Shown here one piece after another: positions 16,915 to 35,670 of a stretch of 43,265 nt of DNA. The position numbers were made by a program, and so were the translations under genes. Every line of letters begins with the position of its first letter. Position 1 is the first letter of the stretch. Under the pieces are notes generated by a model. That model saw only the letters and a program-made list of their open reading frames with translations. It was not told the DNA's origin and did no database searches. This stretch comes from Ignavibacteria bacterium (GTDB taxonomy: Bacteria; Bacteroidota; Ignavibacteria; Kapaibacteriales; UBA2268): contig JAAYJM010000203.1 of assembly GCA_012522895.1 (NCBI GenBank), forward strand, positions 1 to 43,265. Direction: 5' to 3'.

Positions 16915-19900
16915 ATGTTTAAAAGCAATAACATATTTCGGCTATTTTCTTTTCAAAAAGGTAGAATTCTTTTTATTCTACCCATAATTTTCATTTTTTT
17001 GCAAAAGCAGATCTGCCTTTCTGAGACTATTGTAAATAGCAATATTACGGAAAATGCCGTTTGGACTGCAGAAAATAGCCCATATTATATTTTAAGAGAT
17101 ATCACGGTCACTGAAAAGGCAGTGCTTAGCATTCATCCCGGAACTATCATCAAATTTGCAAAAGCAAGAAATCTTTTCGTGAAAGGAATTTTGTCTGCAC
17201 TTGGCACTGAAGAGGAAAAGATTTATTTTACAAGCGATAATGAAAAAAAAGCAAAAAGCCAGTGGGGAGCTATTCATTTTGATTATTCTGCAAAAAACCT
17301 CAGCTCAATAATATCGAAGGCCCTGTTCGAGGGGAGCGGACATAATAATTTGGCGCCGATTGTGCTGGACGCAAGAGCTAATGTTGATTTGAGCAATATA
17401 GAAATGAAAAACAACCTTTATTGCGGAATTGAAATTAAAGCTATTCCATACTCCAAAAGTATTTATTTGAAAAAATTTGAGCTACCCTATCTTGCATTAA
17501 AACAAATTGAGATAGAAAAAGGAGCTGCTTTAGAAATTGAGTCTGGCGCTGTTATCAAATTTGCAAGAAACATAGATTTGCTTATTAAAGGCGATTTAGT
17601 TGCTGATGCGAGCTGGGAGGAGCAAATTATTTTCACTTCGATAAAAGACGATAAAGCAGATGGAATTGATTCAGATTGCAATGGTTTGTCTTTTGGAGAA
17701 AAATTTGATTGGGGCGGTATCGCAATCGAAAATAGCGACAATTCTTTTTTTCGATACGTCCAAATAAAATATGGTGGCGGTTCTGCGAATAGCCAAAATT
17801 CCCTTCTTTTTCTCGATAATTCATCAGCAAGGATTGAACATTGCAGATTTGAGGAATCTGGAAGATATGGAATGAGCTTGCAAAATAATGCCGCTCCCGA
17901 TTTAGGGAAAGGGGACAAGCAATCGGCTGGAATGAATAATTTTTTCGGATTTAGTAAAAACTATTTTGCAATTTTAAATAAATCCACTCAAAATATTTCT
18001 GCAAAAAGTAACTGCTGGGGAACTAATAGCCCAAGTGAAATTGACGAAATGATTTACGATTATTACGATAAAAGTCGCTATGGGAAAGTGGATTACACTG
18101 ATTTTTTAGAAGATTGCTTCGGCTTGCCTTCGATTCCAATTCCTTTGTTTCCAGAAGATCACAGTGAAAATTTAGAGCCAGCGATTGACTTTTTATGGGA
18201 AGAAGCAAGCTCAGCAGCGGAATACGAATTTTCCATTAGCAAAGATCCGTTTTTTAAAAATACTCTGCTCGATACAAGTGGCTTAAAAAACAATGTGTTA
18301 AGCATAGAAAATCTTGAATACAACACAAAATACTTTTGGCAACTGAGGGCAGTAAATCGTTTGGGAATGAGCGATTGGAGTGAAATTTTTAGCTTTTCTA
18401 CCAAAGATAGCGCGAAACCGGAAAAAGTAGTTCTTATCTCACCAGAAAATAATTCTGAGGAAATTGCAAGCATAGTAGATTTTTTATGGCAAAGCTCAGC
18501 CAACACAGAGAAAAGCCATTTGCAAATCTCAAAAAATAGCTCTTTTTCTGAGATTATTTTTGAAAAATTTGGAATAATAGGTAACTCTTTAAAGGAATTG
18601 CTTTTAAGTCCAGAAGAAGAATACTTTTGGCGCGTGCGTGCCGAAAATATGAACGGTTTAAGTGATTGGAGTGAAGTTTTTAGCTTTTCTACTGCTGCTT
18701 GTAAAGATTATCCTGTTCCAGCGTCTTGGGAATTTGAAAAATATACCGGCTCAAATTCAATAATTTTACTCACAAAGGACACAGAACGCTTTTTCGGAGA
18801 TTTTGAGCTGCGAAAAAACGATGCGATTGGAGTTTTTTACAATCAAGATAGTGTGTTGCGTTGTGGTGGCTATGCTTTGCTCGATGATGAGGAAAACATT
18901 GCTATTCCAGTTTGGGGAAAGAATTCGATGACTGGAAGCGAAAAAGACGGCTTTGACGATTTGGAGAATTTGAAGTTTAAAATTTGGAATTCCTGCTGCG
19001 GGGTTGAGCTTATTTGCGCTGTGGAAATGCTTGTTGGCCCTGATTATTTCCTTCCCGACACCATTTCCATAATAAAGAAATTTAATCCACTCGCCAGCAC
19101 CGTCATCAGTTTTAACAGAAACGAGTGGAAAATGGTTTCAAGTCCCGTTTCTCCTTATGATGCTTATTTTAAATCTATTGCGAAAAATAAAAATTTGACT
19201 ATTAAAGAAAATGGCGAAACGGTGTTTTCACCGGAAAAAAATATTTTCATTTCAAATTATTGGAACGCTCAAAATTGCTATGAAATTTTTTCTCCAAAGC
19301 GGGATTCCATCGAGCTAAAAGGAAATTTTCTTCAAGCGGCGCAAAATCCAATTTACATTCAAGCAAGAAGAACGCAAATTATTCCATATTATTTAAACTT
19401 TCCTCAAGCCCTTGAAACTGCACTTGCTCCAATTCTTCAAGATATTCTTTTAGTTAAAGATTCAGAAGGAAAGTGCTTTGTGCCAGATTATATGCACAAT
19501 TCTCTTGGAGCTTTTAAGCCAAACCAGGCATACAAAATAGTATTAAAAAATGATGCAGTTTTTACTTATAATGAAAAGGGAAGTCAAGATTTTTCAATGT
19601 TGGAGCAGAGTGGACCAAAGCATTTTAGACATATAACAAATAGATTCACTGGCTCAAATGCCGTTTTCCTCATCGAATCCGACGTGTTTGAAGATGGCGA
19701 TGAGATTGCTGCTTTAAATGAAAATAATCAAATCCTGGGTTGCGCTCTTGTGGAAAATTCTTTTTGCTTGCTTACTATTTTTGCTGATAATGAAATGACT
19801 CCGCTTGAAAAAGAAGGCGCTAAGGAAAACGAGTCAATACATTTTTTACATTGGAAAAAAAAGGAAAACGCCGAGCAAGAGCTTAACATTGTTGAGTTGA

Positions 19901-22704: not shown

Positions 22705-23739
22705 ATGAAAATAAACAAATTTACAAAAATGATAATTGGAAAGCATAATATAGAAAATGGAGTTTTGCTCGCTCCGATGGAAAGCGTTACAGACCTGCCT
22801 TTTCGAGTGATTTGCAAAAAAATGGGCGCCGACATCGTTTACACAGAATTTATTGCATCTGAGGCACTTATCCGCGATGTCCAACGCTCTATTAATAAAA
22901 TGCAATTTCGAGAAGACGAGCGCCCGATTGCCGTTCAAATTTTTGGTAGCAAAATCGAATCTATGGTCGAATCGGCAAAAATTGTCGAGGAAAGCGGAGC
23001 TGATATTCTTGATATAAATTATGGCTGCTGGGTGAAAAAAGTTGTCAATAATAATTCCGGCGCTGCTCTTTTAAAGGATTTAAGCTTGATGGAAAATATG
23101 ACAAAAGAACTTGTGAAGGCAGTGAAAATCCCTGTTACTGTGAAAACGCGACTCGGTTGGGACGAAAATAGTATCAATATAATAGAAGTTGCAAAAACGC
23201 TGGAAAGCACTGGAATTGCTGCACTTACAATACATTGTCGAACTCGCGAGATGGCTATGCGTGGTAATGCTGATTGGACTTGGATTAACCGCGTAAAAGA
23301 AAAAGTGAATTTGCCAATCATACTTAATGGAGATGTCCGAAGTCCGCAAGATGTAAAACGAGCTTTTGCCGAAACTAACTGCGATGCCCTGATGATTGGG
23401 CGTGCTGCAATTGGTAACCCCTTTCTTTTCAAGCAAATAAAAGCATTTTCAAACAATAATGAAATAATTGGAGAGCCATCGCTTGAAGAGAGGATTAACA
23501 CTCTTTTTTTGCATTTAAACTTGAACATAGAATCAAAGGGCTTCCCGCGTGGTCTTTATGAATTTCGCAAGCATTACAGCGGCTACTTAAAAGGACTTTA
23601 CAACAGCTCGCAGTATCGCCAGCGACTCGTTGTAGCAATGTCAGTCGAAGAAATTCACTCAATTATAAATGAATTATTGGAGGAGCTAAATCATTATTGG
23701 GCAACAAAACCGGATCAGGAATTGGGAGTCGGGAATTAG
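22705..23739 (+). CDS. dusB: tRNA-dihydrouridine synthase
   Basis: Dus motifs ..VLLAPMESVTDLPFR.., ..QIFG.., ..DINYGCW.., ..VTVKTRLGWD.., ..LTIHCRTR... I chose the ATG at 22705 (MKINK..) because the ORF-track start at 22543 would overlap the divergent mpg gene by ~100 nt. Confidence 0.85.
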   Translation: MKINKFTKMIIGKHNIENGVLLAPMESVTDLPFRVICKKMGADIVYTEFIASEALIRDVQRSINKMQFREDERPIAVQIFGSKIESMVESAKIVEESGADILDINYGCWVKKVVNNNSGAALLKDLSLMENMTKELVKAVKIPVTVKTRLGWDENSINIIEVAKTLESTGIAALTIHCRTREMAMRGNADWTWINRVKEKVNLPIILNGDVRSPQDVKRAFAETNCDALMIGRAAIGNPFLFKQIKAFSNNNEIIGEPSLEERINTLFLHLNLNIESKGFPRGLYEFRKHYSGYLKGLYNSSQYRQRLVVAMSVEEIHSIINELLEELNHYWATKPDQELGVGN

Positions 23740-23785
23740 GAATAAGAAAGAATATCGGTCTTTCTGAACCTAGTGAAGAAGCCAG

Positions 23786-23919
23786 AGAAAATTCCCCAGC
23801 CGTTTTTTTCAAAGTGGGAGAATCTTTTTAGGCAGAAAACGCAGGACAGTCCATTATCCCCCGCTGGCGGGGGCAGGGGGTGGATCTTTATACATCGCAA
23901 TTACTTAATGCTTTTTATA
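23786..23919 (+). repeat. REP/MITE-like intergenic repeat, copy 2
   Basis: See copy 1: 97/111 identity of 23809-23919 to the reverse complement of 3026-3136. Same GC hairpin CCCCCGCTGGCGGGGG. Short inverted ends TTCAAAGTGGGAGA (23808-23821) and CTTCCCATTTGAA (23921-23933). It also sits between convergent gene ends. Confidence 0.8.
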
Positions 23920-25315
23920 TACTTCCCATTTGAATTTGGGAAGGAGGAGGGGGTTTTGGAAGGAGAGGAAAATAAATAAAGGGAAAGAAAAAAGCTTAGG
24001 GTAGTGTTTGTAATGGGTGGTTAATGTTAAGCCACCAAGCAAGCGATTGTAATACCTTGCTATGTTCCAGTGGTGGACGTGGTATTCGTCTCGGGCAAAA
24101 AATCGAAATATTTTTATGCCGCGGTCCTTGAAGTCCGGGCAATCGAAACGAGATAAGTCTGCTTGGGTATGGGCTTGTATTAGTGAATCGTATTTACCGA
24201 AAAACAAGCTTCTTGATTTGGGTGTCTCGAATCTAAACCAGCGAACTCGCAATGAACTATGCCCGTGATAAGTTACTTCTATTTTTAAGGAATCTATTTT
24301 TATATAATCACTACTTTTTTTCTTTAGAAAAAAATTGATTAATGTATCAATACCATTAATATTTCTAATACCACAGAAAAAACTACTTGAAATAGTAATA
24401 TCTCTATTACCTCCAATTGGCAACATATTTCTTGTAATAACGAATTCATTAGTTGTGTTAAATTTAATGCCCTACCTCTGTATCTGTTTCTTGCATCTAT
24501 TATTCCAAACGTATCAGCAATTGTAGGACTTGGCGTTCTGTCGAATTCAATGTAGTCAGGTGGTGTTCTGTTTCCGTTAACAGGTAAGGTAATATATTTT
24601 ACTTTTATTGTTAAAACAGGTTCATTGTCTAATACAAGATCATCATCTTCATCCCTTCCAAGATTGCACGTCAAATACCACATTTCACCATTTACTTCCC
24701 ATTTAGAAATCTTTTTCGACTCTGAGTCGGCATCTTCAGGAGGGGAATAAACAATATCATGCCCATGCTTTGATGAAGTATGCTCTAACTCTGCTGAGGG
24801 CCAGTTATCGCTTAAAACAAAACCATTATTAACATAATCAGAATCTTTTTCAAATATTTGATAATCTCCTTCTCTTCTCCCTTTACATTAATAAACCCAA
24901 ATATTGATTGTAAATTGTCATTTTCAAGGACATTACAATCTTTAGTAGGGTCAATTTTAAGACGTGCATCAAATTGCATTGCCTGTGCTTGTGTTGGTGT
25001 TCTCTGATTTCCATTAGCGCCAACATAATATGTTTTTCTAATAATGTAAGTACTATCACAATAACTATTTGGTTCTGTTACTCCAATTTTTGATCCACCA
25101 ACGTGGATATTCATACCCATTAATTTATCTATTAAGGAGTCACCAGACCAATGAAATCCGCGTAAAAACTTATTTGTTTGAAATTCCTCATAATTTGGGC
25201 TTAATTGCCTCGGTGTATTCGGCTCATTACCATAAAAGAAATGCAGCGTATCTGCATCGAAATTTTGTGCTGATATAATTGAAAACGAAAAAAGTAATAA
25301 TAATAAATATCTCAT
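23905..25315 (-). pseudogene. Secreted hypothetical protein gene broken into three reading frames (at least 2 frameshifts)
   Basis: ORF 24812-25315 begins with a signal peptide (MRYLLLLLFSFSIISAQ). A second frame is open from ~24887 to 24339 and a third from ~24471 to 23905. The open frames overlap end to end, as expected for frameshifts inside 24812-24887 and 24339-24471. No family recognised. Confidence 0.45.
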
Positions 25316-25319
25316 TGTT

Positions 25320-25565
25320 TCACTCCTTAATAAATTTGTGTGTTTCAGTTTCTTGATTAGATGTTATTCTCAAGAAATAAGCGCCAATAGGTAATTTTGA
25401 TGTATTTATAATTTTACTATTTTCTTCAATAGTTATAACTTCATTAAAAATTGAATTTCCATTAATATCAATTATTTCAATTTTATTTATTATTTGATTA
25501 TCAAAATCAATTTTCAAAATATTATCAATTGGATTAGGACTTATTTTTATTTTAAATTTTTTAAA
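25320..25565 (-). pseudogene. Orphan T9SS C-terminal sorting domain (remnant of a truncated cargo gene)
   Basis: The frame is open only from 25565. It encodes ..KIKISPNPIDNILKIDFDNQIINKIEIIDINGNSIFNEVITIEENSKIINTSKLPIGAYFLRITSNQETETHKFIKE, a complete ~77-aa Por-tail. A stop codon lies immediately upstream (25566-25568), and there is no ATG/GTG start or protein body. Confidence 0.6.
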
Positions 25566-25919
25566 TTATAAGAAAAATTCTAATAATTTTATTGAAAATC
25601 AGATTGGAGAACTTATATCAATTAACGGTAGTTGCTACTAAAACAAAAAAAGGAAAACACATGGTAGTATAAAAATAATTAATTAAGTGTTTTGCTAATT
25701 AGATTTCTTTTGATATCTTTGGTAGTTTTCAAATGTTATTGAGGTTGCTATTATGAGAAAGCTACGCTTTTTAGCTCTTATGACCTTTGCACAATTATTT
25801 ATCACTATTGAAGTTGAATTTCAAAGGGAATGCTGAATATCTTTTCGTTCCAATTTCTGTGTGGAATTGATTGAACGATTCATTAGAAAAAGAAAACATA
25901 AGTAAATTTTGATTATAAT

Positions 25920-28079
25920 TTGAGTTATGATATGGCAACGATGTCTCCCGACTGGAATACTATTCAAAACCTTCAGCAAAAAACTACAGAAGGGGAATTG
26001 TATTTGTTGAAATTTCTCGATGAAAATCTTGATGAAAGCTATGAGGTATATTTTCAGCCTTTTTTAAACGGAGATAGGCCAGATATTGTTGTAATGAGAC
26101 AAGGCTCAGGCGTATTGATAATTGAAGTAAAAGATTGGAGCTTGCAGAACTATGTTAACAGATGTGGGAAATGGTTTGTTAAAAAAGATGGACAAGAACA
26201 CCTTGTTTTATCACCCTACAAACAAGTTAAAAAATATAAAGAAAACCTTTATAACTTACATATACCTACACTTTTAGAAAATAAAATAAGAAATCCAAAT
26301 TTCTTTTCAGTAGTGAATTGCGCCTTGTATTTCCACAATTCAAATAAGCTTGAATTTAATGAATTTAACAAAGAAGAAAGTCCTTCTAATACAAAGTGGA
26401 TACGAGGCTTAACCCCAGATCAACTTAAAAGGAATGGATATTTTCAAAGGTTTCTTTATGAAACTTATTTGAGCAGGCAATCTATATTGTTTTTAGAAGA
26501 TTTGTATAATAGCTTTAAAAGGTTTTTTCAACCACCAACTCATACGATCGAAGAAGTAATTGAAATTACTTATTCTAAAGAGCAGAAACAATTGATAGAA
26601 AGTAAAGCTGGTGATAAAAAGATAAGAGGAGTAGCTGGTTCAGGTAAAACTATGGTGTTGGCTAAAAGGGCTGTAAATTCACACTTGAGAACTCGAGAGA
26701 AAGTTTTAATCCTAACTTATAACATTACTTTAAAAAACTATATTCATGATTTATTAAGTAAAGTCAGAGAAAACTTTGCTTGGGAGCATTTTAAAATCAA
26801 TAATTACCATAATTTTATAAATCATTTTTTAAACAATGAAGGGATATCGAAAGAAGAGCTTTTTAAAAGTGTCTTGCGCCAAGATTCAAAACTTATAAAA
26901 TTTGCAAATAATAATAATTTTGATAATCTTCAAGAGCAAATAGTTGAGGACTTAGGCAAAGAGGATTTGTCAGAAATTTGGGAAAAAGCTGTTTACTCGA
27001 ATTTAAATTTTTTTTCAAAGCATGAAATTTCTGTTTCTGACAAATATGATTCAATTTTTATTGATGAGGTCCAAGATTATCATTATGAATGGTTAGAAAT
27101 AATTAAAAAATGTTTCTTGAACTCAGGCGGAGAATATGTGCTATTTGGGGATGAAAAGCAAAATATTTATGAAAGGCAATTAGAAACTGATAAAAAAGTA
27201 AAAACAAATATTTCTGGTAGGTGGGATGAATCACTAAAAAAATCATTTAGACTTCATAAAAATATAGCTTCAATTGCAGCCGATTTTCAGAAAGAATTTC
27301 TTAATAAATACGAATTTGACAGTATAGAAATAGTTGAACAGAAATCACTTTTTAATGAAAATATTTTAAAAATTGAGTATCATGAGATTCGAAATGAGCC
27401 AGCAGTTATAGCAAATTTTATTAATTCATACATTGAAACTAACGGTATAAGTCCAAATGATGTAGCAGTTTTAGGCACAGCCGTTTCATTTTTAAGAAAT
27501 ATTGATTTTGAATTTAGGCAAGTAAGTAGAGAAAGGACTTCTACCACTTTTGAAACACAAGAAATGTTTGAGCTATTATTCCGAAAAGATTACAATTCCA
27601 TTTCAAAGGAGGATGAAGAAATCAAGCTAAATAAAAATTTTTTAGATGGTAATCTTCAAATTGCATTAAGAAAAGTTTTATCTAAAATAGATTTTATTGA
27701 AAACCCTGAAATATACACTGAAGTGCCAGATGAGGTTGGTTTGAATAATGATTACCGAGTAGACAATTTAGTAGAAAAAATTACTCCAAGAATTAATATG
27801 GAAATTGAAAATATAAGAAAGAACAAAAAAGTACATTTTTGGATGAATTCAGGTGTGGTTAAAATGTCAACAATTCACAGCTTTAAAGGTTGGGAAGTTC
27901 CTACATTGTTTTTATTGTTAGATAATATGAATGATAGATTTCCAAAGCATGAACTTATTTATACAGCTATAACAAGATGCAGATTTAATCTTGTTGTATT
28001 AAGCATTGGCTCTCAAACATATTCAGACTTCTTTAAACGTAAATGCAATATATTTCAACCTATTAATGGCGTTGATTGA
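25920..28079 (+). CDS. NERD-domain nuclease fused to UvrD/Rep-like SF1 helicase
   Basis: 719-aa ORF. The track start is TTG at 25920; the first ATG is at 25932. NERD/PD-(D/E)XK-like N-terminus ..GDRPDIVVMRQGSGVLIIEVKDW... Walker A GVAGSGKTMVLAKRA. Motif II SIFIDEVQDYH. C-terminal UvrD_C motifs ..MSTIHSFKGWEVPTLFLLL.. and ..LIYTAITRCRFNLVVL... Confidence 0.85.
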   Translation: MSYDMATMSPDWNTIQNLQQKTTEGELYLLKFLDENLDESYEVYFQPFLNGDRPDIVVMRQGSGVLIIEVKDWSLQNYVNRCGKWFVKKDGQEHLVLSPYKQVKKYKENLYNLHIPTLLENKIRNPNFFSVVNCALYFHNSNKLEFNEFNKEESPSNTKWIRGLTPDQLKRNGYFQRFLYETYLSRQSILFLEDLYNSFKRFFQPPTHTIEEVIEITYSKEQKQLIESKAGDKKIRGVAGSGKTMVLAKRAVNSHLRTREKVLILTYNITLKNYIHDLLSKVRENFAWEHFKINNYHNFINHFLNNEGISKEELFKSVLRQDSKLIKFANNNNFDNLQEQIVEDLGKEDLSEIWEKAVYSNLNFFSKHEISVSDKYDSIFIDEVQDYHYEWLEIIKKCFLNSGGEYVLFGDEKQNIYERQLETDKKVKTNISGRWDESLKKSFRLHKNIASIAADFQKEFLNKYEFDSIEIVEQKSLFNENILKIEYHEIRNEPAVIANFINSYIETNGISPNDVAVLGTAVSFLRNIDFEFRQVSRERTSTTFETQEMFELLFRKDYNSISKEDEEIKLNKNFLDGNLQIALRKVLSKIDFIENPEIYTEVPDEVGLNNDYRVDNLVEKITPRINMEIENIRKNKKVHFWMNSGVVKMSTIHSFKGWEVPTLFLLLDNMNDRFPKHELIYTAITRCRFNLVVLSIGSQTYSDFFKRKCNIFQPINGVD

Positions 28080-28213
28080 AATACCAGCTATCCTAATCTC
28101 TCGCTTTACTCCGAAGGGCTTTTCCTTTTTATAAAATGCTTGAAGTGCCAACTTTTTTTCAATCAAGCAATCTTCTAATTGGCAAGCAGAATGTATGTAT
28201 TGGATGCTAAAAG

Positions 28214-28239
28214 CTGTCCAACTTGCTGGTAGCAGGGCA
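28214..28239 (+). repeat. 26-nt direct repeat, left copy (CTGTCCAACTTGCTGGTAGCAGGGCA)
   Basis: 24/26 identical to 35482-35507, in the same orientation. Weaker similarity extends ~8 nt upstream (GCTAAAAG vs GTTAAAT). Confidence 0.75.
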
Positions 28240-28445
28240 TACAGATTATTGCTAATGATACATTAACAGAAGAAAGATTTGGCAGAATACTGCATATTAG
28301 CGGCCTTCAAAATCGAAGTAGGTATTTTGACGATGAACTTATTTATACAACAATAACAAGGGCAAGATTTAACATAATCATACTTAATCTTGGCGTGATG
28401 AAATACCATCAATTTTTTGAAAGTTCAATAAGAAATGGAATATAA
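28233..28445 (+). pseudogene. C-terminal remnant of a second UvrD-like helicase gene
   Basis: Open frame of 70 codons bounded upstream by TAG (28230-28232), with no start codon. It encodes ..ERFGRILHISGLQNRSRYFDDELIYTTITRARFNIIILNLGVMKYHQFFESSIRNGI*. This aligns with the last ~60 aa of the 719-aa helicase (..TIHSFKGWE...HELIYTAITRCRFNLVVLSIGSQTYSDFFKR..; 13/21 identical over the ELIYT..G core). Confidence 0.6.
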
Positions 28446-28579
28446 AGAAGTGAAAACAATAACGAAAGTTGGTATGGTAATTGAAATCAAATTTAAGGTA
28501 AATGTAAATTTTTTCGATGAAATAAACTCTGCATTTTAGTATTAAATAATAAAATTAAGATATAAGGGGAAATTCAGTT

Positions 28580-31500
28580 ATGTTATTAGACAACAAAACA
28601 AGCATTGCCGGTAGAAAATACTTTAAAGTGTTTGATTATTTAAAGGCTTATGCAGGCGAAAACGGAACGATGAATATAGTTACCGGCTACTTTACAATTT
28701 ATGCTTTATCTGAAATTTACGATAAGCTATGCAAGAAAAATGTTAAGGATGAGCAAGAAGACGGGAATATACAATGCAAATTTAGATTGCTGCTTGGGTA
28801 TTTGATAGCAAAATATGACAAAAAGGATAAAATTATTGATTTACTGAGAGAAGATCTAGATATTGACAAAACTCTTAGGTTAAGCTCGTATGCTAAAAAA
28901 GCTATAAAATTTCTTGAGCAAGATGCAGTTCAAATTAAGCATATTTCAGATAGCTTTTGCCACGCTAAAGCCTTCATTTATGAAGAAGATGACAGTCGCC
29001 ATAAGTTCTATATTGTCGGAAGTTCGAATTTGACGGAAGCCGGTCTTGGAATTCAAAGGTCATCAAATATTGAGCTTAATATCGCTATTTCAGGTGGAGA
29101 TTCAGACTATGAGGATATTTTGCAATGGTTCAATCAACTTTGGAAAAACACTGCGAGCGACAAAATCAAACAGAATGGAGGTCGAAAAGTTGACCTAAAA
29201 GAACACTTAATCGAGAAGATTCAAGATTTTTTCATTAAGCGCAGCCCTAAAGATATTTATTATAAGATTCTTTATGAGCTATTTAAAAAAGATTTTGATA
29301 ACGGGATACTTGATCCTGTTTTTCAAAGAGAAATTGCTTTTGTCCAAGATACAAGGCTTTACAAAGCTCTTTACCCCTTCCAAAAAAAAGCAGTCATTAG
29401 CTTAATAAAAATGCTTCTAAAAAGAAATGGTGCTATTCTTGCTGACGCTGTGGGTCTTGGTAAAACATGGACTGCGCTTGCTGTTATGAAATATTTTGAA
29501 ATGCAAGGATATAGAATTGTTGTCTTTTGTCCTAAAAAACTTGCTCAAAATTGGAAACAGTACTTATATGGAAATAGATCTAAGTTCGATAAAGATAAAT
29601 TGGATTATTGGGTTCGCTTCCACACCGATTTACAGGACGAAAGATTAGACCGCTACGATAGGAAGCTAAATGCCTTGCAAGGGAATCCCAAAATATTGTT
29701 TGTTATTGACGAAAGCCATAATTTAAGAAACGATAAGTCATCAAGATATGGATTTCTTGTGGAAAATGTATTGAAGAAAAATAGAGATGTAAAAGTATTG
29801 CAGCTTTCGGCTACTCCGATTAATAATAGATTGATTGATGTTAGAAATCAATTCAAATTGATTGTAAAAGGAGAGGATGCTGGGTTTGAAAAATCAGATG
29901 TCGAAATAAAAAGCCTTGAAAGACTTTTTGCAAGAGCTCAAAGAGATTTCAAAGAGTGGCAGGAAAATGATGATAGAAAAATATGTGATTTTATATCAAA
30001 ATTAGATAATAAATTTTTTACATTAACGGATTCATTAATCGTTGCTCGAACTAGGCCTATCATAGAAAAAGAATTTGACAGCTTAAGGTTTCCAAAAAAA
30101 GAAAAACCGAAAAACGTATTCATAAGCCCTGAGAATATTGGTTCCCTTCGGGCTTTTGATGAGATTTTAAACGCTTGTGCAGTAAATTTAACTGCGTATA
30201 GACCAAGCGAATATACAGAAGTGGCAAAACCTGTAAGCGTTCTGGAAGACCAACAACAACGTGAAAAGTTTTTATGCAAAATGATGTATATTCTTTTTGT
30301 TAAAAGATTGGAATCGAGCTGGTATTCATTTAAAATTACAATTAATAAAATTTTAGAGCAGCACCAAAAAGCACTTAAAAAAGTCAACAATTACTTGAAA
30401 AGCACAAGTCGTTCGTCAGACATTGAGATTGACAGCGTTGATTATGAACAATTTGAAGAGTATGAAGATGAGCCTGAATTTGAACTTGGGGCAAAGAATC
30501 CAATCAGAATTTCAAGCATATCGAATATACAATTATTTAAAGAGCATCTTGAAAAAGACATAGAAAAAATGGAAAACTTAAAAGAAAATTTAATAAAGTA
30601 TTCTGAAACAGTTCAAAATGATTATAAATGCGATACTAAAATCAATAAATTGATAGAAATAATTAGAGAAAAACAAGAGAAATCAAATAATAAAAAAGTC
30701 GTTATCTTTACTACATTTAGCGATACAGCTAAATATATTTTCGACACACTAAAAAAAGTTGGACTAAAAAGGATTGCTTTCGTTAGCGGTAGCAAGTGCA
30801 AAACTGACGAACCTTTAAGTAATAAATCTGATAGATTTGATGCAATTCTCGAGCGCTTTGCCCCCTTCACTAAACTTTTCAACGAAAAAGATTGGTCTAC
30901 GCTTTATGAAGAAAATTCAATTGAGACAATACAAGATTATGAAGAATGGAAAAAATTTGTAATAAAGCACGACAAGGATACCCGCGTAAAACTTGAAAAT
31001 CCAATCGACATACTTATCGCAACAGACTGCTTAAGCGAGGGACAAAACTTGCAAGATGCCGATTGCGTGATTAATTACGATATTCACTGGAATCCCGTTC
31101 GACTCGTGCAAAGGTTTGGGCGTATAGATAGAATTGGCTCGCCAAATGAATCAATTATTGGCATTAACTTTTGGCCCGCTAAGGACTATGAAGATTATTT
31201 GAGGCTTAAAGAAAGAGTAGAAACAAGAATGGCACTTATGACAGTGGTCGGTGCTGAAGTCGATGAAGAACTGACGCAGGAATTGCGAGAGATGCTGGAA
31301 GATAATCCGCTTCTTGCGAAGCAAACTGAAAAAATGCTCGAACAACTTCAAGAAACTTGGGAGGGAATTGAGCAAGAAAACGAAAAATTTGGAATGAGCG
31401 ATTTATCACTTGAGTTGCATAGACAAGATTTTTATGATAAGATGATGGAAAACAGAAAAGAATATGAATCTATTCCAAATGGCGTTTTTTCTGGATTCAA

Positions 31501-31942
31501 AGCAAAACCAGATGCCGATTTCCCAAATTTACCGAATGGCATAATCGCTGCTCTCGGCTATCCAAAAAATAGAATAGAAGAAGAAAATTTTTATTACGAT
31601 GAAATACATTTGCTTTACATTGACTCAAAAGGCACAAGTTTATTTAAAAATAGTAGTGAAATTTTAGCTATATTGAGAAAACATAAAGAAGAGGATAGAT
31701 ATGTCCCTGATAAAATTGAAAACGTTGACAAAGATGAAATTAAAATACTTGCAGATTTGCTTAAAAAAGTAATAAAAGGACAAAGAGGAGAGCAAGCTGT
31801 AGAAGAAATAAATAATCTTTTTCAATATGGCGCCCTCCCGAGAAACCAGGGAGAAAATATGCTGATTGAAGAAAAATTTAAACCAGAAAATTTCGACTTA
31901 ATTACTTGGGTAGTTGTTTCTGATAATAAGGATATTGAATAA
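28580..31942 (+). CDS. PLD-family (single HKD) nuclease domain fused to SNF2-family SF2 ATPase/helicase
   Basis: 1120 aa with the Shine-Dalgarno-like AAGGGG 10 nt upstream. N-terminal HKD-type motif CHAKAFIYE..x..[15 protein letters not shown]2 motifs: [41 protein letters not shown], then a long inter-lobe insertion. C-lobe ..[14 protein letters not shown].., ..[43 protein letters not shown]. Confidence 0.85.
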
Positions 31943-34900
31943 ATGGATTTAACTAAATTTAACTCTGAAAATCTTTTTGAAGCTGGGCTTTCTTTTTTTA
32001 AGCAGCTTAGCGTTCCTTTGAAACTTATGACTAAGGAAAAAGTTTCAGCAGAAAGCATTTTAAAAAATCATTTTAAGCCATTGCCAGTTTTTAAATCTAT
32101 CGTAGAGACTTATTTTCTTGGAACTATTGAAGAATCAGTTTTTGAAACGACTTCAAATGAAGAAAAAACTGAGCAAAGCTTCGATGAATTTATTGAAGAA
32201 GTTGATGAGAAATATAAAATCATTATGATTTTTGCTCTTAAACTTGAAAATTATGCCCCCACGAGAACGGAAATAGCAAGCCTTGTAAGAGCTTTCAATA
32301 GAGCAAGCAAAGAAGCACCAGTGATTTTATTGCTCAAATATGAAAACGGGGACAGCAGCTTTCTTACTTTTTCTACCATAGAAAGAACTGCCTACACCCA
32401 AAAATGGCGAGAAGGTGAAAAGTTGGGCAAAGTCTCTATGCTCAAAGACATTAATATCGAAAAGCCACACGCCGGGCATTTGAAAATTCTGCAAGATTTG
32501 AAATTGAAGTCCGATGTAAAATGCTTTGAGGCTCTATACAAACAATGGAAAGAAGTTTTTGACATTCAGTTGCTCAATAAACAATTTTATAAAGAAATTG
32601 CAAATTGGTATTTCTGGGCTAAATCGGTAGTTAAATTCCCAACGATTGCAGGCACTGAGGAAAAAACTCAGGCTGACGCAAGTTTAATTCGCTTGCTTAC
32701 TCGAATTATTTTCATTTGGTTCTTGAAAGAAAAAAAACTTGTTCAAGATGAATTGTTTAATAAAAATTCCCTTGATACTATTTTAGATTACAAAGACGAA
32801 ACCGGCTCAACCTATTACAAAGCTATATTGCAAAATTTGTTCTTTGCGACATTAAATACAGCAATGAAAAAGGACAAGCCAAAAAGTAGGATTTTTATTG
32901 AAGACGCAAAGAAATATGGCTATATTAATGACGGATACCTCCAATCTGGCTATTATAGATATAAAAGATTTATTAAAAAGCCCGACACGTTGCTGAAATT
33001 GTTTGCAAATATTCCTTTTCTCAATGGCGGACTTTTTGAGTGCTTGGATAGTAAAATTGATGGAAAAGAAATTAGAATTGATTGCTTTTCCGACAATAAG
33101 AAAAATGAATCGCTTTTAAAAGTGCCAGATGAATTATTCTTTAGCCAAGAAAAAGATAATGATCTTAATAAAGATTATGGAACTAAAAATAAAATATACA
33201 AAGTATGCGGCTTAATCAATATTTTAAATAGGTATAAATTTACTATTGATGAAAATACGCCATTGGAAGAAGACATTGCTCTCGACCCAGAATTACTGGG
33301 AAGGGTGTTTGAAAATCTTTTAGCAAACTACAATCCCGAAACTGGCGACACTGCTCGAAAGGCTACAGGCTCATTTTACACCCCTCGCGAAATCGTAAAT
33401 TATATGGCCGATGAGAGTTTAATCGCATACCTCGAAGAAAAATTTGAAAAAAACAAAGAAAGCACAGATCATCCCTCAAATAGGGAAAGGCTGAAAAAAC
33501 TGCTTACTTATGCCGAAGATGAGCCGGACTTTAACGAAAACGAAGTCCAAACAATTATTGATGCTATTGATAAAATTAAAATACTCGACCCCGCCTGCGG
33601 CTCCGGCGCTTTCCCTATGGGGATACTTCATAAATTAGTGCATATACTTCATAAACTTGACCCTGAAAACGAAAGATGGAAGAAAAAACTTATCGAAAAA
33701 ACGCCTTACGAAATTCGGACTGAAACTGAAAAAGCACTCGAAGGAAAGCCACTTGATTACATCCGCAAACTCGGACTTATTGAGTCCTGCATCTATGGTG
33801 TTGATATTCAGCCGATTGCCATTCAAATTGCTAAACTTAGATTTTTTATCTCCTTAATCGTTGAGCAAAAAATTGACGACTCGAAAGAAAATCGCGATAT
33901 TAGACCTTTGCCCAATCTTGAAACTAAATTTGTTGCTGCTAATACGCTTATTGGATTAGAACAAGACGATAGCTTAAAATCCGAATATGTGGAGAAAGCT
34001 GAACATAATTTATTCGATATTAGAAGAAAAATTTTTTATTCTAATAGCTCAAGCGTAAAAAAAGTTTTGCAAAAAAAGGAAAAAGAAGCCCGAGAAAATC
34101 TAAAAGAAGCATTGAAACAGAGCGGCTTTAATAACCAAATAGCTGAAAAAATTGCATCTTGGGATCCATTCGAGCAAAACAGCTCGGCTAATTGGTTCGA
34201 CCCTGAATTTATGTTCGGTCTGAAAAATGGTTTCGATATTGTGATTGGAAATCCACCTTATGGTGCGAAATATCCAGAAAAATATAAAAAATACTTCAAG
34301 GATAACTATGAATCTGCCAAAACAAAAGAAATAATTGAAAATGGACAAAAAGTAAAGTTAAAAGGTTCGCTTGATACTTTTTCGCTGTTTATTGATAAAA
34401 GCATGCAAATTATTAATAACAACTCCTTCTTGACTTTTATAGTGCCTTTGGCTATTACTTCAAGTGACTCAATGTTATCTTTACATAGGATAATGTTTGA
34501 AAAATGCGAAACAATTAAAGTATCAACTTATTCTGACCGACCCAAAAAGATTTTTGACAATGCCGAGCAAGCTGTATCGATCCTAAGTTTTCAAAAAAAC
34601 AACAAACAGAATACAAACTTATTTACAACAAAGGTTAATAAAAAGTATTCAGATACAAGTATCAGCACAGTATTAGAAAAACTGAAGTTTATTAACTCTA
34701 AGGATTTCGTGTTACCAGGAAGAATACCAAAAATTGGTTTACCTATAGAACTTAAAATTTTGGAAAAGATTTTTACAATAAAAACAACAATCAAAGACCT
34801 GCTGGTTAAAGAGAATGGGAATCCAATTTATTACAGAGCGGCTGGCGGTAGATATTTTAAGGTGATTACAAATTATACAACTAATTCATCAGCAGAAAAG

Positions 34901-35284
34901 TATCTTATTTTTGACAAAAATATTTGTAATACAATTGGAGCAATACTAAGCACCAATTTATACTATTGGTTTTATCATATTTACTCTGATACTTTAAATA
35001 TGAAGTTGTATGAACTAGAAATTATGCCAATTCCAGTTGATAAACTAGTTCACCAAAAAGACAAAATTGAAAGATTATATGATGAATACCTAAAAGACCT
35101 GCACAAGAACTCAAAGATAAAAAAAGTTAACTATTCCCACATTTCTGAATATCGTGAGTATTATGCCAGAAAGTCCAAGCATATTATAGATCAAATAGAT
35201 TTAGCCATACAAGATGCATACGGTTTTACAGATGAAGAAATAAATTTTATAATAAATTATGATATTGAATTCAGGCTGGGTTAA
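31943..35284 (+). CDS. Large gamma-class N6-adenine DNA methyltransferase (Eco57I/PglX/DrmMI-like) with C-terminal target-recognition domain
   Basis: 1113 aa. The ATG directly abuts the TAA of the upstream gene (TAAATG). Motif X ATGSFYTPREIVNYM, motif I ILDPACGSGAFPMG and motif IV DIVIGNPPYG occur in gamma-class order. The C-terminal ~330 aa has a TaqI-C-like TRD signature (..ILSTNLYYWFYHIYS..YELEIMPIPV..) and a typical tail YGFTDEEINFIINYD. The N-terminal ~450 aa are unassigned. Confidence 0.85.
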   Translation: MDLTKFNSENLFEAGLSFFKQLSVPLKLMTKEKVSAESILKNHFKPLPVFKSIVETYFLGTIEESVFETTSNEEKTEQSFDEFIEEVDEKYKIIMIFALKLENYAPTRTEIASLVRAFNRASKEAPVILLLKYENGDSSFLTFSTIERTAYTQKWREGEKLGKVSMLKDINIEKPHAGHLKILQDLKLKSDVKCFEALYKQWKEVFDIQLLNKQFYKEIANWYFWAKSVVKFPTIAGTEEKTQADASLIRLLTRIIFIWFLKEKKLVQDELFNKNSLDTILDYKDETGSTYYKAILQNLFFATLNTAMKKDKPKSRIFIEDAKKYGYINDGYLQSGYYRYKRFIKKPDTLLKLFANIPFLNGGLFECLDSKIDGKEIRIDCFSDNKKNESLLKVPDELFFSQEKDNDLNKDYGTKNKIYKVCGLINILNRYKFTIDENTPLEEDIALDPELLGRVFENLLANYNPETGDTARKATGSFYTPREIVNYMADESLIAYLEEKFEKNKESTDHPSNRERLKKLLTYAEDEPDFNENEVQTIIDAIDKIKILDPACGSGAFPMGILHKLVHILHKLDPENERWKKKLIEKTPYEIRTETEKALEGKPLDYIRKLGLIESCIYGVDIQPIAIQIAKLRFFISLIVEQKIDDSKENRDIRPLPNLETKFVAANTLIGLEQDDSLKSEYVEKAEHNLFDIRRKIFYSNSSSVKKVLQKKEKEARENLKEALKQSGFNNQIAEKIASWDPFEQNSSANWFDPEFMFGLKNGFDIVIGNPPYGAKYPEKYKKYFKDNYESAKTKEIIENGQKVKLKGSLDTFSLFIDKSMQIINNNSFLTFIVPLAITSSDSMLSLHRIMFEKCETIKVSTYSDRPKKIFDNAEQAVSILSFQKNNKQNTNLFTTKVNKKYSDTSISTVLEKLKFINSKDFVLPGRIPKIGLPIELKILEKIFTIKTTIKDLLVKENGNPIYYRAAGGRYFKVITNYTTNSSAEKYLIFDKNICNTIGAILSTNLYYWFYHIYSDTLNMKLYELEIMPIPVDKLVHQKDKIERLYDEYLKDLHKNSKIKKVNYSHISEYREYYARKSKHIIDQIDLAIQDAYGFTDEEINFIINYDIEFRLG

Positions 35285-35481
35285 GCAAGCATATAACTAA
35301 ACCCCATTCCAGCGTTCCGATTTAGAACAATAAATCGAGCTTTTTGTCCGCCGCTTGCTTGTGACAGCAGCGTCATTTTATCTATATCTTTTTTTGAAAA
35401 TAAAGTTCCAATCAAAACTGCGGGACTTCCAAAAAAATTGAACAGCTGAATATAATTTAATCAATATATAAGTTGTTAAAT

Positions 35482-35507
35482 CTGTCCAATTTGCTGGTAG
35501 CGGGGCA
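35482..35507 (+). repeat. 26-nt direct repeat, right copy (CTGTCCAATTTGCTGGTAGCGGGGCA)
   Basis: 24/26 identical to 28214-28239. It lies ~200 nt after the methyltransferase stop and 90 nt before tRNA-Met. Confidence 0.75.
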
Positions 35508-35596
35508 CCTTCTAACTTACTAAGAAAGCTATGTCTGGGCTTTTTTTATATCTTGCAAAAAAAATAATATTCTATTGAAAAAAAAGGTGTTTCTTG

Positions 35597-35670
35597 TGGG
35601 CCTGGAGGGACGTGAACCCCCAACCTACGGATTATGAGTCCGGCGCTCTAACCAGTTGAGCTACAGGCCC
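35597..35670 (-). tRNA. tRNA with anticodon CAT (elongator tRNA-Met, or lysidine-type tRNA-Ile2)
   Basis: Reverse complement reads GGGCCTGTAGCTCAACTGGTTAGAGCGCCGGACTCATAATCCGTAGGTTGGGGGTTCACGTCCCTCCAGGCCCA. 7-bp acceptor stem GGGCCTG/CAGGCCC with a paired 1-72 (so not an initiator). D-arm GCTC..GAGC. Anticodon loop CTCATAA. Confidence 0.85.

What the first reader, a model, noticed from the sequence alone, without database searches (positions are those of the whole stretch)
25920..28079. NERD nuclease + UvrD-like SF1 helicase fusion: Nhi-like single-gene defence candidate, or a third partner of the neighbouring operon
The N-terminal ~110 aa carry a NERD/PD-(D/E)XK-type signature (..RPDIVVMRQGSGVLIIEVKDW..). 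A full SF1 helicase core follows (GSGKT; FIDEVQDY; TIHSFKGWE; YTAITRCRFNLVV), with a poorly conserved ~100-aa insert before the last motifs. A nuclease fused to an SF1 helicase is the architecture reported for the staphylococcal anti-phage protein Nhi, and UvrD-like helicases are accessory subunits in Gabija (GajB). Here the gene is on the same strand, 500 nt upstream of the PLD-SNF2/MTase operon. A remnant of a second helicase of the same type lies directly in front of that operon (separate finding). So a helicase of this type has sat upstream of the pair at least twice, which hints at functional linkage rather than chance neighbourhood.
Basis: partly seen in the sequence, partly recalled or inferred. 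Interest (0 to 1): 0.65.

Follow-up and report, generated by a model that had tools for sequence, protein, structure and literature searches.

The report
Stand-alone NERD nuclease–UvrD helicase defence cassette
The gene is real and encodes a nuclease fused to a UvrD-type DNA helicase, most likely a self-contained, horizontally moving anti-phage gene that landed beside, rather than forming part of, the neighbouring restriction-like operon.

Summary
An intact 715-aa gene (true start ATG 25932, stop 28079) encodes an N-terminal NERD nuclease with all catalytic residues. It is fused to a complete SF1A helicase of the UvrD/PcrA/Rep type.

It is not a member of the Nhi family. Nhi and Nhi-like carry a DUF2075/Dda-type helicase, which is absent here. 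The best match is PADLOC's candidate model 'NERD+UvrD' (E 3e-63), for which I found no experimental test.

The 'third partner' reading is not supported:
- The gene sits on a 2.6-kb cassette (25642-28238) that is 92.5% identical in DNA to a copy in an unrelated locus lacking the PLD-SNF2/MTase pair.
- The five closest relatives each sit beside a different defence system.
- Only 1 of 80 genomic homologue loci carries the pair.
- Four of five related pairs examined lack such a helicase.

The upstream helicase relic is real. It is an internally deleted copy of a different, nuclease-dead paralogue. In four relatives that paralogue is a backbone gene of an integrative element, followed each time by different cargo.

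A 30-nt direct repeat brackets the PLD-SNF2/MTase module next to a tRNA-Met gene. The neighbourhood is therefore hotspot architecture. This is a new member of a known candidate kind, of moderate interest.

The parts
25642..25931 (+). Upstream leader of the transferred cassette. It probably holds the gene's own promoter; a Bacteroidota -7-like TATCTTTG lies at 25714-25721.
   Evidence: DNA homology to L001/L003 (92.5% over 2,600 nt) begins at 25642. The TAnnTTTG match is and is not more frequent than chance window-wide.
25932..28079 (+). NERD nuclease-UvrD-like SF1A helicase gene, 715 aa, intact.
   Evidence: AF2 model: mean pLDDT 88.1, pTM 0.86.
25932..26336 (+). NERD (PD-(D/E)XK) nuclease domain, aa 1-135. 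Catalytic D51 (PD, nt 26079-26084), E65-V66-K67 (nt 26124-26132), Q98xxxY102.
   Evidence: Pfam NERD E 1.9e-10. D51, E65, K67, Q98 and Y102 are invariant in 68 homologues. dN/dS 0.19 against the 89%-identical homologue.
26562..28076 (+). SF1A helicase core, aa 211-715. Walker A GSGKT (nt 26637-26651), motif II DEVQD (27057-27080), motif III GDEKQNIY, motif V TIHSFKGWE (27870-27896), motif VI YTAITRCR (27960-27983).
   Evidence: Pfam UvrD-helicase, AAA_19, UvrD_C_2. PDB profile hits to HelD, AddA, FBH1, UvrD. Foldseek top 23 hits are UvrD/PcrA/Rep/UvrD1, E down to 8.5e-18.
27588..27806 (+). Clade-specific helical insert in the 2B domain, aa ~553-625.
   Evidence: Absent from most homologues. 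Helical in the model. dN/dS 0.76 for aa 541-635.
28080..28239 (+). 3' tail of the cassette, ending in copy 1 of a 30-nt motif (28210-28239).
   Evidence: Homology to L001 ends at 28238. Motif.
28242..28445 (+). Relic of a second helicase gene of the nuclease-dead L100 type. Residues 159-191 are fused in frame to residues 720-768 at a shared 'DEL', so about 540 codons are deleted.
   Evidence: tblastn of the L100 helicase: 61% over 33 aa and 63% over 49 aa, E 3e-19. Collinear with L100 through to PLD-SNF2.
28580..31942 (+). PLD (HKD)-SNF2 helicase, a neighbouring separate module.
   Evidence: Pfam PLDc_2, SNF2-rel_dom, Helicase_C. PADLOC 'HKD+Snf2' E 1.3e-72.
31943..35284 (+). Eco57I/MmeI-type (type IIG-like) N6-adenine methyltransferase, partner of the PLD-SNF2 gene.
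   Evidence: Pfam Eco57I E 1e-23. PADLOC REase_MTase_IIG E 6.5e-59. The same pair occurs in L101, L102, L104, L191 and L069.
35478..35507 (+). Copy 2 of the 30-nt motif. With copy 1 it brackets the 7.27-kb relic + PLD-SNF2 + MTase module.
   Evidence: 27/30 identical to copy 1. Two matches in the window against 0 expected.
35596..35670 (-). tRNA-Met gene whose 3' end faces the island; a possible integration landmark.
   Evidence: ARAGORN.
25320..25517 (-). Orphan C-terminal T9SS sorting domain, a truncated host gene at the left edge of the island.
   Evidence: Pfam Por_Secre_tail E 4.5e-10. The reading frame is broken by stops upstream.

Best explanation
The gene is a self-contained, horizontally mobile, single-gene nuclease-helicase module. 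Its most probable role is defence against phages or other invading DNA.

Shown:
- It has an intact NERD (PD-(D/E)XK) nuclease domain carrying the D...ExK and QxxxY residues.
- It has a complete UvrD/PcrA/Rep-type SF1A motor.
- It travels as a 2.6-kb cassette with its own upstream leader.
- It has no conserved partner gene.
- It sits in variable neighbourhoods rich in defence genes and mobile-element genes.

Inferred mechanism:
- By analogy with UvrD-type motors, the helicase loads on single-stranded DNA at ends, gaps or forks of replicating foreign DNA and translocates 3'->5' using ATP.
- It feeds the strand to the N-terminal nuclease. This would make it a miniature AddA/RecB-type helicase-nuclease with the domain order reversed.
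- As reported for Nhi, the nuclease is probably held inactive until a phage-specific replication intermediate or protein is met.
- The fast-evolving linker and 2B insert are candidate regulatory or sensor surfaces.

Its position 500 nt upstream of the PLD-SNF2/MTase pair reflects successive insertions into one hotspot next to tRNA-Met, not a three-gene system.
For: Domains and motifs:
-.
- D51, E65, K67, Q98, Y102 and all helicase motifs are invariant in 68 homologues.

Structure:
- AF2 model with pLDDT 88.
- Foldseek: UvrD/PcrA/Rep E ~1e-17, AddA 8e-14, GajB 1.5e-11, RecB 1.8e-11.
- PDB profile: HelD, AddA, UvrD.

Defence-candidate model:
- PADLOC 'NERD+UvrD' E 3.2e-63.

Mobility:
- Window 25642-28238 is 92.5% identical to L001/L003 in a different context.
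- GC is 29% (GC3 23%), against 33% for the neighbouring pair and 35-38% for host genes.
- Family members come from at least nine bacterial phyla and one archaeon.
- 25 of 72,556 plasmids carry a homologue. One is IS-flanked on a Klebsiella IncFIB plasmid; another lies beside a type II RM on an IncN plasmid.
- Only 630 of 1.84 billion representative proteins match at E<=1e-30.

No conserved partner:
- The largest neighbour cluster covers 6 of 80 loci.
- 130 Pfam families occur among 134 immediate neighbours, and 179 among 128 next neighbours.

The five closest contexts each adjoin a different defence-type gene set:
- RtcR plus an NsnB-like ATPase
- A retron-like RT plus RtcR
- A type III REase
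- Type I RM plus an AriA/NsnB-like ATPase
- PLD-SNF2 plus MTase (this window)

Selection:
- dN/dS is 0.19 for NERD and 0.31-0.37 for the motor, so both activities are maintained.
Against: - No member of this family has, to my knowledge or in the papers searched, been tested against phage. The PADLOC model is a candidate only.
- About a tenth of immediate neighbours are recognisable defence genes, and some are plainly housekeeping (IDH, aconitase, NrdD). The island association rests mainly on the closest relatives.
- Translocation polarity, nuclease substrate and trigger are all inferred.
- No intrinsic terminator was found after the gene, and no Bacteroidota-type -7 box lies in front of PLD-SNF2. 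Read-through transcription into the pair is therefore not excluded.
Confidence: 0.6

Rival explanations
1. Third subunit of the downstream system. The UvrD-type helicase works together with PLD-SNF2 and the type IIG-like methyltransferase. In this genome the intact NERD-UvrD gene functionally replaced the decayed, nuclease-dead paralogue.
For: - A helicase of this family lies directly upstream of, or beside, such a pair in three independent arrangements. These are the window (intact gene plus relic), L100 (139-nt gap) and L069 (order MTase, PLD-SNF2, NERD-UvrD, 26-nt gap, same strand).
- No terminator or obvious promoter was found in the 500-nt gap.
- There is precedent: ARMADA type II combines an SNF2 helicase, a PglX-like MTase and a GajB-like UvrD helicase carrying an N-terminal nuclease domain (PMC12458937).
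Against: - 79 of 80 genomic loci of the family lack the pair.
- Four related PLD-SNF2/MTase loci (L102, L104, L190, L191) have no such helicase.
- 0 of 80 viral PLD-SNF2 loci have one.
- The 89%-identical homologue sits on the same 2.6-kb cassette without the pair.
- The L100-type helicase keeps its place while the downstream cargo changes: a type III-like enzyme, a 294-aa protein plus UvrD, or a channel plus HipA.
- A 30-nt repeat separates the two modules.
- GC3 differs: 0.23 for the gene against 0.29-0.30 for the pair.
Confidence: 0.1
2. A gene serving the mobile element rather than the host. Examples are a replication or recombination helicase-nuclease of plasmids and integrative elements, or a weapon against competing elements.
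For: - Homologues occur on conjugative plasmids.
- The 66% homologue lies on an element with an integrase and a primase.
- The nuclease-dead clade is a fixed backbone gene next to S24 repressor genes of an integrative element.
Against: - In the window and in L001, L007 and L194 the gene is not accompanied by element backbone genes.
- On plasmids it sits among IS elements or RM cargo, away from the replication or transfer modules.
- The active-NERD clade has no fixed place in any element.
Confidence: 0.12
3. A promiscuous helper or effector for reverse-transcriptase-based or RtcR-regulated systems. The helicase-nuclease would be the effector arm of a neighbouring RT/RtcR module that has been lost in this window.
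For: - Mestre et al. 2022 report that 7 of 17 UG34 RTs are co-located with a NERD+helicase cluster (PMC9226505).
- PADLOC models 'RTasHel' (E 1.8e-19) and, for a relative, 'RTasNERD-Hel' match.
- RTs are immediate neighbours in 4 of 80 loci.
- An RT plus RtcR lie directly upstream of the 66% homologue.
- RtcR-like genes lie beside two of the closest relatives and within two genes in two more loci.
Against: - RT adjacency is 5% and RtcR adjacency is lower.
- RtcR orientation is not conserved (convergent in L001, co-directional in L004).
- Neither an RT nor an RtcR gene is in the window near the gene.
- The cassette shared with L001 excludes all but the last few bases of the RtcR gene.
Confidence: 0.08
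4. Housekeeping DNA repair helicase-nuclease.
For: The fold and motifs are those of the repair helicases UvrD and AddA. Some homologues have housekeeping neighbours.
Against: - Distribution is very patchy: 171 confirmed matches among 185,579 species genomes with the two search patterns used, which is a lower bound.
- There is no conserved synteny.
- GC content is atypical for the host, and a near-identical copy sits in another locus.
Confidence: 0.03

Closest known systems
PADLOC-DB candidate model PDLC01087 'C3a187: NERD+UvrD'. NCBI annotates the same family as 'NERD domain-containing protein/DEAD/DEAH box helicase'.
   Same: Same two-domain architecture. The model matches aa 11-517 at E 3.2e-63 and also matches every relative tested, including the nuclease-dead clade. 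NCBI names for homologues agree.
   Different: It is only a candidate model, and I found no experimental validation. The window protein belongs to a small sub-clade (P0002-P0005) with two extra inserts, about 40 aa in 1B and about 75 aa in 2B, giving 715 aa rather than ~608 aa.
Nhi (SERP2475, Staphylococcus epidermidis; Bari et al. 2022) and Nhi-like (Millman et al. 2022)
   Same: A single polypeptide of 600-700 aa with an N-terminal PD-(D/E)XK-type nuclease followed by an SF1 helicase. Also stand-alone, horizontally spread and near other defence genes. The review PMC10952713 lists NERD in Nhi-like. It probably works alike, degrading replication intermediates with an autoinhibited nuclease.
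   Different: - The Nhi helicase is DUF2075 (PF09848), Dda-like. Here there is no PF09848 hit.
- The motifs are DExQD and GDxxQxIY, and the fold is UvrD/PcrA/Rep, i.e. SF1A.
- The Nhi nuclease resembles the HsdR N-terminus; here it is NERD.
- No PADLOC model named Nhi was among the hits.
AddA / RecB (AddAB, RecBCD helicase-nucleases)
   Same: A UvrD-like SF1A motor and a PD-(D/E)XK nuclease with a QxxxY motif in one chain. AddA and RecB are among the structural matches (E 8e-14 and 1.8e-11). RecBCD-type degradation of linear foreign DNA is an established barrier to phage (established knowledge).
   Different: The domain order is reversed, with the nuclease N-terminal. The protein is about half the size. 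There is no partner subunit gene, no evidence of Chi-type regulation, and sequence identity is 12-14%.
GajB of Gabija
   Same: A UvrD-like SF1A helicase used in defence. GajB models match at up to E 2e-13, and GajB structures (8iud, 8sm3) are among the fold hits.
   Different: GajB has no nuclease domain and acts with GajA (OLD-family ATPase/TOPRIM). No GajA-like gene is near this gene in the window.
ArmD of ARMADA type II (PMC12458937)
   Same: [quoted passage not shown]
   Different: The ArmD N-terminus is RelE-like, not NERD. ARMADA is defined by a YprA-like helicase, which is absent here.

Membership tests
NERD domain (PF08378; PD-(D/E)XK superfamily) | Profile match above Pfam's gathering score | tested here: met
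   41.7 bits against a cut-off of 22.1, aa 19-128, profile positions 3-108 of 111.
NERD domain (PF08378; PD-(D/E)XK superfamily) | Catalytic D...(D/E)xK residues present and conserved | tested here: met
   D51, E65 and K67, together with Q98 and Y102, are invariant in 68 homologues. They are lost only in the L100 clade.
SF1A UvrD/Rep/PcrA-like helicases | Walker A, motif II DExQD, motif III GDxxQxIY, and motifs V and VI | tested here: met
   GSGKT, IDEVQDY, GDEKQNIY, TIHSFKGWE and YTAITRCR are present and invariant in the family. Pfam UvrD-helicase scores 37.5 against 23.
SF1A UvrD/Rep/PcrA-like helicases | Four-subdomain fold (1A/1B/2A/2B) closest to UvrD/PcrA/Rep | tested here: met
   The top 23 Foldseek PDB matches are UvrD, PcrA, Rep and UvrD1, E 8.5e-18 to 2.4e-14. 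Profile search finds HelD, AddA, FBH1 and UvrD.
SF1A UvrD/Rep/PcrA-like helicases | 3'->5' translocation on ssDNA, ATP-dependent unwinding | not testable with these tools
   Requires biochemistry.
PADLOC candidate 'NERD+UvrD' (PDLC01087) | Match to the family HMM over both domains | tested here: met
   E 3.2e-63, 212 bits, protein aa 11-517 against profile positions 8-461 of 559.
PADLOC candidate 'NERD+UvrD' (PDLC01087) | Demonstrated anti-phage activity | not testable with these tools
   No experimental report was found in the searched library.
Nhi / Nhi-like | Helicase of the DUF2075 (PF09848), Dda-like type | tested here: not met
   No PF09848 match at E<=0.01, and none in the precomputed domains of the protein. 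The fold and profile are UvrD-like.
Nhi / Nhi-like | N-terminal PD-(D/E)XK nuclease required for immunity | tested here: inconclusive
   A PD-(D/E)XK nuclease is present, but it is of the NERD type rather than HsdR-N-like. The requirement for immunity is untested.
Nhi / Nhi-like | Detectable sequence homology to SERP2475 | not tested
No PADLOC hit carried the name Nhi.
Gabija (GajB) | UvrD-like helicase matching GajB models | tested here: met
   The best GajB model gives E 2e-13, which is 50 orders of magnitude weaker than the NERD+UvrD model.
Gabija (GajB) | Adjacent GajA (OLD-family ATPase + TOPRIM) | tested here: not met
   None of the neighbouring window ORFs scanned matches GajA, OLD or TOPRIM.
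Three-gene system with PLD-SNF2 + type IIG-like MTase | Conserved co-occurrence of the helicase with the pair | tested here: not met
   1 of 80 helicase loci (L069) carries the pair. L102, L104, L190 and L191 carry the pair without the helicase. The sample of pair loci is small.
Three-gene system with PLD-SNF2 + type IIG-like MTase | Inherited or transferred as one unit | tested here: not met
   The cassette 25642-28238 recurs alone at 92.5% identity. A 30-nt repeat brackets the pair separately.
Three-gene system with PLD-SNF2 + type IIG-like MTase | Co-transcription or functional dependence | not testable with these tools
   Only DNA metagenome runs hold the sequence. No terminator or promoter was resolved in the gap.
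DISARM / ARMADA | Core DrmA/DrmB (DUF1998) or YprA-like helicase in the locus | tested here: not met
   The PLD-SNF2 protein scores 147.7 bits on the DrmD model against a cut-off of 610. No DrmA, DrmB or YprA-like gene is among the window ORFs scanned.

The most novel reading that the evidence does not exclude
UvrD-type helicases of this family may be interchangeable 'front-end' modules for variable downstream effectors.

The nuclease-dead clade always sits immediately upstream of a changing effector set: PLD-SNF2+MTase, a type III-like enzyme, a 294-aa protein plus UvrD, or a channel plus HipA. Twice it has a separate Endonuclease_NS gene in front.

In this window the dead copy decayed after a nuclease-active paralogue arrived in the same position. 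That would be paralogue displacement, and would imply that the PLD-SNF2/MTase system needs such a helicase.
Probability: 0.1. Interest if true: 0.65.

Novelty: new member of a known kind. Interest (0 to 1): 0.36.

Why it matters
NERD-UvrD fusions are a sizeable family: 630 representative clusters match at E<=1e-30. They are already listed as defence candidates but have not been tested.

This locus supplies a clean, minimal test object. It is a 2.6-kb cassette with defined ends and intact catalytic residues, sitting next to a separable two-gene restriction-like module.

The locus also shows how repeated adjacency of 'the same kind' of gene can arise from hotspot and element-backbone architecture rather than from functional coupling. 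That is a useful caution for guilt-by-association predictions.

If the gene protects on its own, it would add an SF1A (UvrD-type) counterpart to the DUF2075-type Nhi systems.

Tried and rejected
- **Sequence search of PDB.** The single protein gave no hit. The NERD-domain profile gave only a chance hit. No close solved structure exists.
- **IMG/VR scan with a PLD-SNF2 alignment.** It gave 80 loci, but at only 28-34% identity, and 75 lacked the MTase. It is weak evidence on the pair.
- **Terminal repeats of the cassette.** None are convincing. The only notable direct repeat is the 40-nt motif-VI segment shared by the gene and the relic.
- **Duplicated tRNA-Met 3' end as an att site.** None found.
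- **The 30-nt motif in IMG/VR.** None found.
- **An 'empty-site' joint in four metagenomes.** None found.
- **Rfam and tRNA scans of the region.** Nothing apart from tRNA-Met.
- **Sigma-70 and terminator scans.** At or below chance.
- **One literature search ('Nhi-like' OR 'NERD').** It was swamped by unrelated uses of 'NERD'.
- **NCBIfam.** It has no specific model for the protein.
- **Rejected: Gabija, DISARM and ARMADA membership.** The defining partner genes are absent.
- **Rejected: assembly chimera.** Independent contigs span both junctions.
Full report

Yes. The + strand carries one long ORF, 25920-28079. In an alignment of 18 homologues M1 and A2 are invariant. The start is therefore the ATG at 25932, not the TTG at 25920, and the product is 715 aa.

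Pfam finds NERD (aa 19-128, E 1.9e-10, above threshold), UvrD-helicase, AAA_19, Viral_helicase1 and UvrD_C_2. In 68 homologues the nuclease residues D51, E65, K67, Q98 and Y102 are invariant, as are Walker A, DExQD, GDEKQNIY, motif V and motif VI.

The 'poorly conserved insert' (aa ~553-625) and a second insert (~305-345) are specific to the small clade P0002-P0005. Most relatives are about 608 aa long.

Contigs from independent anaerobic-digester and wastewater metagenomes span 25389-28537 and 27869-28709 with at most one mismatch. The arrangement is not an assembly artefact.

**2. What kind of protein is it?**

The AlphaFold model built on 68 sequences is confident (mean pLDDT 88.1, pTM 0.86). 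Against the PDB its 23 best matches are UvrD, PcrA, Rep and UvrD1 (E 8.5e-18 to 2.4e-14). These are followed by AddA, FBH1, AdnAB, GajB, RecB and SLFN11. A sequence profile finds HelD, AddA, FBH1 and UvrD.

The motor is thus SF1A of the UvrD type. The NERD domain has no close solved relative by sequence.

PADLOC's best model is 'C3a187: NERD+UvrD' (E 3.2e-63). GajB models reach only 2e-13, and no hit is named Nhi.

Compared with its 89%-identical homologue, dN/dS is 0.19 in NERD and 0.31-0.37 in the motor. It is 0.74-0.76 in the linker and in the 2B insert. Both catalytic parts are therefore maintained, while the inserts drift or diversify.

**3. Comparison with Nhi.**

The Nhi preprint (bioRxiv 10.1101/776245) describes SERP2475 as a 606-aa protein. 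It has a DUF2075 (PF09848) helicase resembling T4 Dda and an N-terminus resembling an HsdR nuclease. It shows 3'-5' exonuclease and nickase activity that is nearly absent in the full-length protein, plus bidirectional unwinding.

Millman et al. call their protein 'Nhi-like' because it has a nuclease plus DUF2075 (10.1101/2022.05.11.491447).

The window protein shares the architecture class and probably the logic. It fails the defining DUF2075 feature, so it is an analogue and not a member.

**4. Is it part of the neighbouring operon?**

Five lines of evidence say no.

(a) *A separately transferred cassette.* Window 25642-28238 is 92.5% identical in DNA to L001/L003. There the same gene (89% aa identity) lies between a host porin-like gene and an RtcR/ABC-ATPase cluster. 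Homology covers 290 nt upstream, the gene and 159 nt downstream, and then stops.

(b) *Different neighbours in the closest relatives.* The closest relatives adjoin different defence-type genes:
- P0002 (89%): RtcR plus an NsnB-like ATPase.
- P0003 (66%): a retron-like RT plus RtcR.
- P0004 (59%): a type III restriction enzyme.
- P0005 (53%): type I RM plus an AriA/NsnB-like ATPase.

(c) *No conserved partner across the family.* The 80 genomic loci of the family come from Bacteroidota, Cyanobacteria, Ignavibacteriota, several classes of Pseudomonadota, Campylobacterota, Bacillota, Planctomycetota, Chloroflexota, Patescibacteria and one archaeon. The largest neighbour cluster covers 6 loci. Immediate neighbours fall into 130 Pfam families and next neighbours into 179. 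Only L069 carries an MTase/PLD-SNF2 pair.

(d) *The pair usually stands without such a helicase.* PLD-SNF2/MTase pairs related to the window's (53-68% identity) lack it in L102, L104, L190 and L191.

(e) *Composition.* The gene's GC3 is 0.23, against 0.29-0.30 for the pair.

**5. What is the relic in front of the operon?**

The closest PLD-SNF2 homologue (P0122, 67%) has a 768-aa helicase 139 nt upstream of it (L100). That helicase is 32% identical to the window protein.

The window relic (28242-28445) matches that helicase's residues 159-191 (61% identity), fused in frame to residues 720-768 (63% identity). The junction is at a 'DEL' shared by both segments, which implies an internal deletion of about 540 codons. 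From there the window is collinear with L100 and L101 through the spacer, PLD-SNF2 and the MTase.

In the L100 clade (P0241-P0245) the NERD catalytic residues are lost: PD becomes PT or PN, ExK becomes EVF, QFF or SIS, and QxxxY is lost. The helicase motifs are intact.

Context look-ups show this dead-NERD helicase at a fixed place in an integrative or prophage-like element. It follows a pair of S24-peptidase genes, and twice an Endonuclease_NS gene lies directly in front of it. Four different cargoes follow it:
- PLD-SNF2 plus MTase
- a 294-aa protein plus a UvrD helicase
- a type III-like ResIII/RE_endonuc protein
- a K+ channel, HipA_2 and DUF3037, running up to the integrase

The relic is therefore a piece of element backbone that came in with the pair as cargo. 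It is not evidence that the pair needs such a helicase.

**6. Island anatomy.**

- *Left edge.* An orphan T9SS sorting domain (25320-25517, minus strand) marks a truncated host gene.
- *Repeated motif.* A 30-nt motif occurs exactly twice in the window, at 28210-28239 and at 35478-35507. The first copy forms the last bases of the NERD-UvrD cassette. The second lies 198 nt past the MTase stop and 89 nt before the 3' end of tRNA-Met (35596-35670, minus strand). The copies are 27/30 identical, against 0 matches expected by chance.
- *Other copies.* Among 195 fetched loci, the only other copies are in L001-L003, again at the end of the cassette homology.
- *Interpretation.* The two copies bracket the 7.27-kb relic + PLD-SNF2 + MTase module. 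I read this as an att-like or cassette-end site and as further evidence that the two modules are separable. It is unproven: there is no integrase between the copies, no empty-site contig was found, and there is no match in IMG/VR.

**7. Most likely mechanism.**

Steps shown:
- An intact PD-(D/E)XK nuclease with a QxxxY motif.
- An intact UvrD-type motor.
- Single-gene mobility.
- Variable neighbourhoods rich in defence and mobile-element genes.

Steps inferred from established knowledge of UvrD/PcrA/Rep and AddAB/RecBCD, and from the Nhi work:
- The motor translocates 3'->5' on single-stranded DNA exposed at ends, gaps or forks of replicating foreign DNA and hands it to the N-terminal nuclease.
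- Activity is probably restrained until a phage-specific intermediate or protein is encountered.
- The variable linker and 2B insert are candidate control surfaces.

I put 0.6 on a stand-alone anti-phage or anti-mobile-element nuclease-helicase. The rivals are a third subunit of the pair (0.1), an element-serving function (0.12), an RT/RtcR-linked effector (0.08) and housekeeping repair (0.03).

**8. Novelty and verdict.**

The family is already annotated by NCBI and catalogued by PADLOC as a candidate. I found no experimental test of it. This is a new member of a known candidate kind.

The added value lies in three things: the defined cassette, the explanation of the relic, and the nuclease-dead backbone clade. 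Interest is moderate.

Noticed in passing
window 28210-28239 and 35478-35507: A 30-nt direct repeat (27/30 identical, 0 expected by chance) brackets the 7.27-kb helicase-relic + PLD-SNF2 + MTase module. The only other copies among the fetched loci are in L001-L003, at the end of the shared cassette, where the motif overlaps the stop codon of an RtcR-like gene. It is a possible att or cassette-end site.
   Followed up: partly
L100:5556-7862, L105:9001-11319, L107:7350-9668, L108:9001-11325: A clade of NERD-UvrD paralogues has a catalytically dead NERD domain but an intact helicase. It holds a fixed position after S24-peptidase genes in an integrative or prophage-like element. Different cargo follows it each time, and twice an Endonuclease_NS gene precedes it.
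   Followed up: partly
window 23668-24001 (core ~23757-23890): A high-copy dispersed repeat. Metagenome contig depth here is 100-345x against 5-12x for the flanks, with many alternative junctions. A 58-nt match (81%) lies in L001 at 18388-18445. It includes a G-rich palindromic stretch (CCCCCGCTGGCGGGGGCAGGGGG). There was no Rfam hit.
   Followed up: partly
window 35596-35670 (- strand): A tRNA-Met gene whose 3' end faces the island, 89 nt beyond the second motif copy. It is a likely landmark of an integration hotspot, but no duplicated tRNA segment was found.
   Followed up: partly
window 25320-25517 (- strand): An orphan T9SS C-terminal sorting domain (Por_Secre_tail, E 4.5e-10) with no upstream coding part. 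It is a host gene truncated at the left edge of the island.
   Followed up: yes
window 28435-28539; L101:1-111: A short ORF (34 aa, MEYKEVKTITKVGMVIEIKFKVNVNFF...) lies between the relic and PLD-SNF2. It resembles the peptide encoded just upstream of PLD-SNF2 in L101 and L100 but is absent from L102 and L104. Whether it is a small gene or only a conserved spacer is unknown.
   Followed up: no
L001:11053-12525 (-), L004:8450-9892 (+), and two of L008-L087: RtcR-like sigma-54 activators with CARF-type N-termini lie next to the two closest homologues of the gene, in different orientations. They also lie within two genes in two further loci. No such gene is in the window.
   Followed up: partly
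L069:3435-11833: In a Hyphomicrobiales MAG the order is MmeI-like MTase, PLD-SNF2, then a NERD-UvrD with active-site residues intact. All are on one strand, with gaps of 19 and 25 nt between the ORFs I called. This is the one locus where a three-gene operon looks plausible.
   Followed up: partly
window 27949-27988 and 28333-28372: A 40-nt direct repeat (85% identical), 384 nt apart, formed by the motif-VI coding segments of the intact gene and the relic. It is a substrate for homologous deletion that would fuse the two.
   Followed up: no
window 30276-30673: Several metagenomes (X2, X5, X8) hold contigs that match only this stretch of the SNF2 gene and continue into unlike sequence on both sides, with locally doubled depth. 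This points to a conserved SNF2 segment shared with another organism or a recombinant variant.
   Followed up: no
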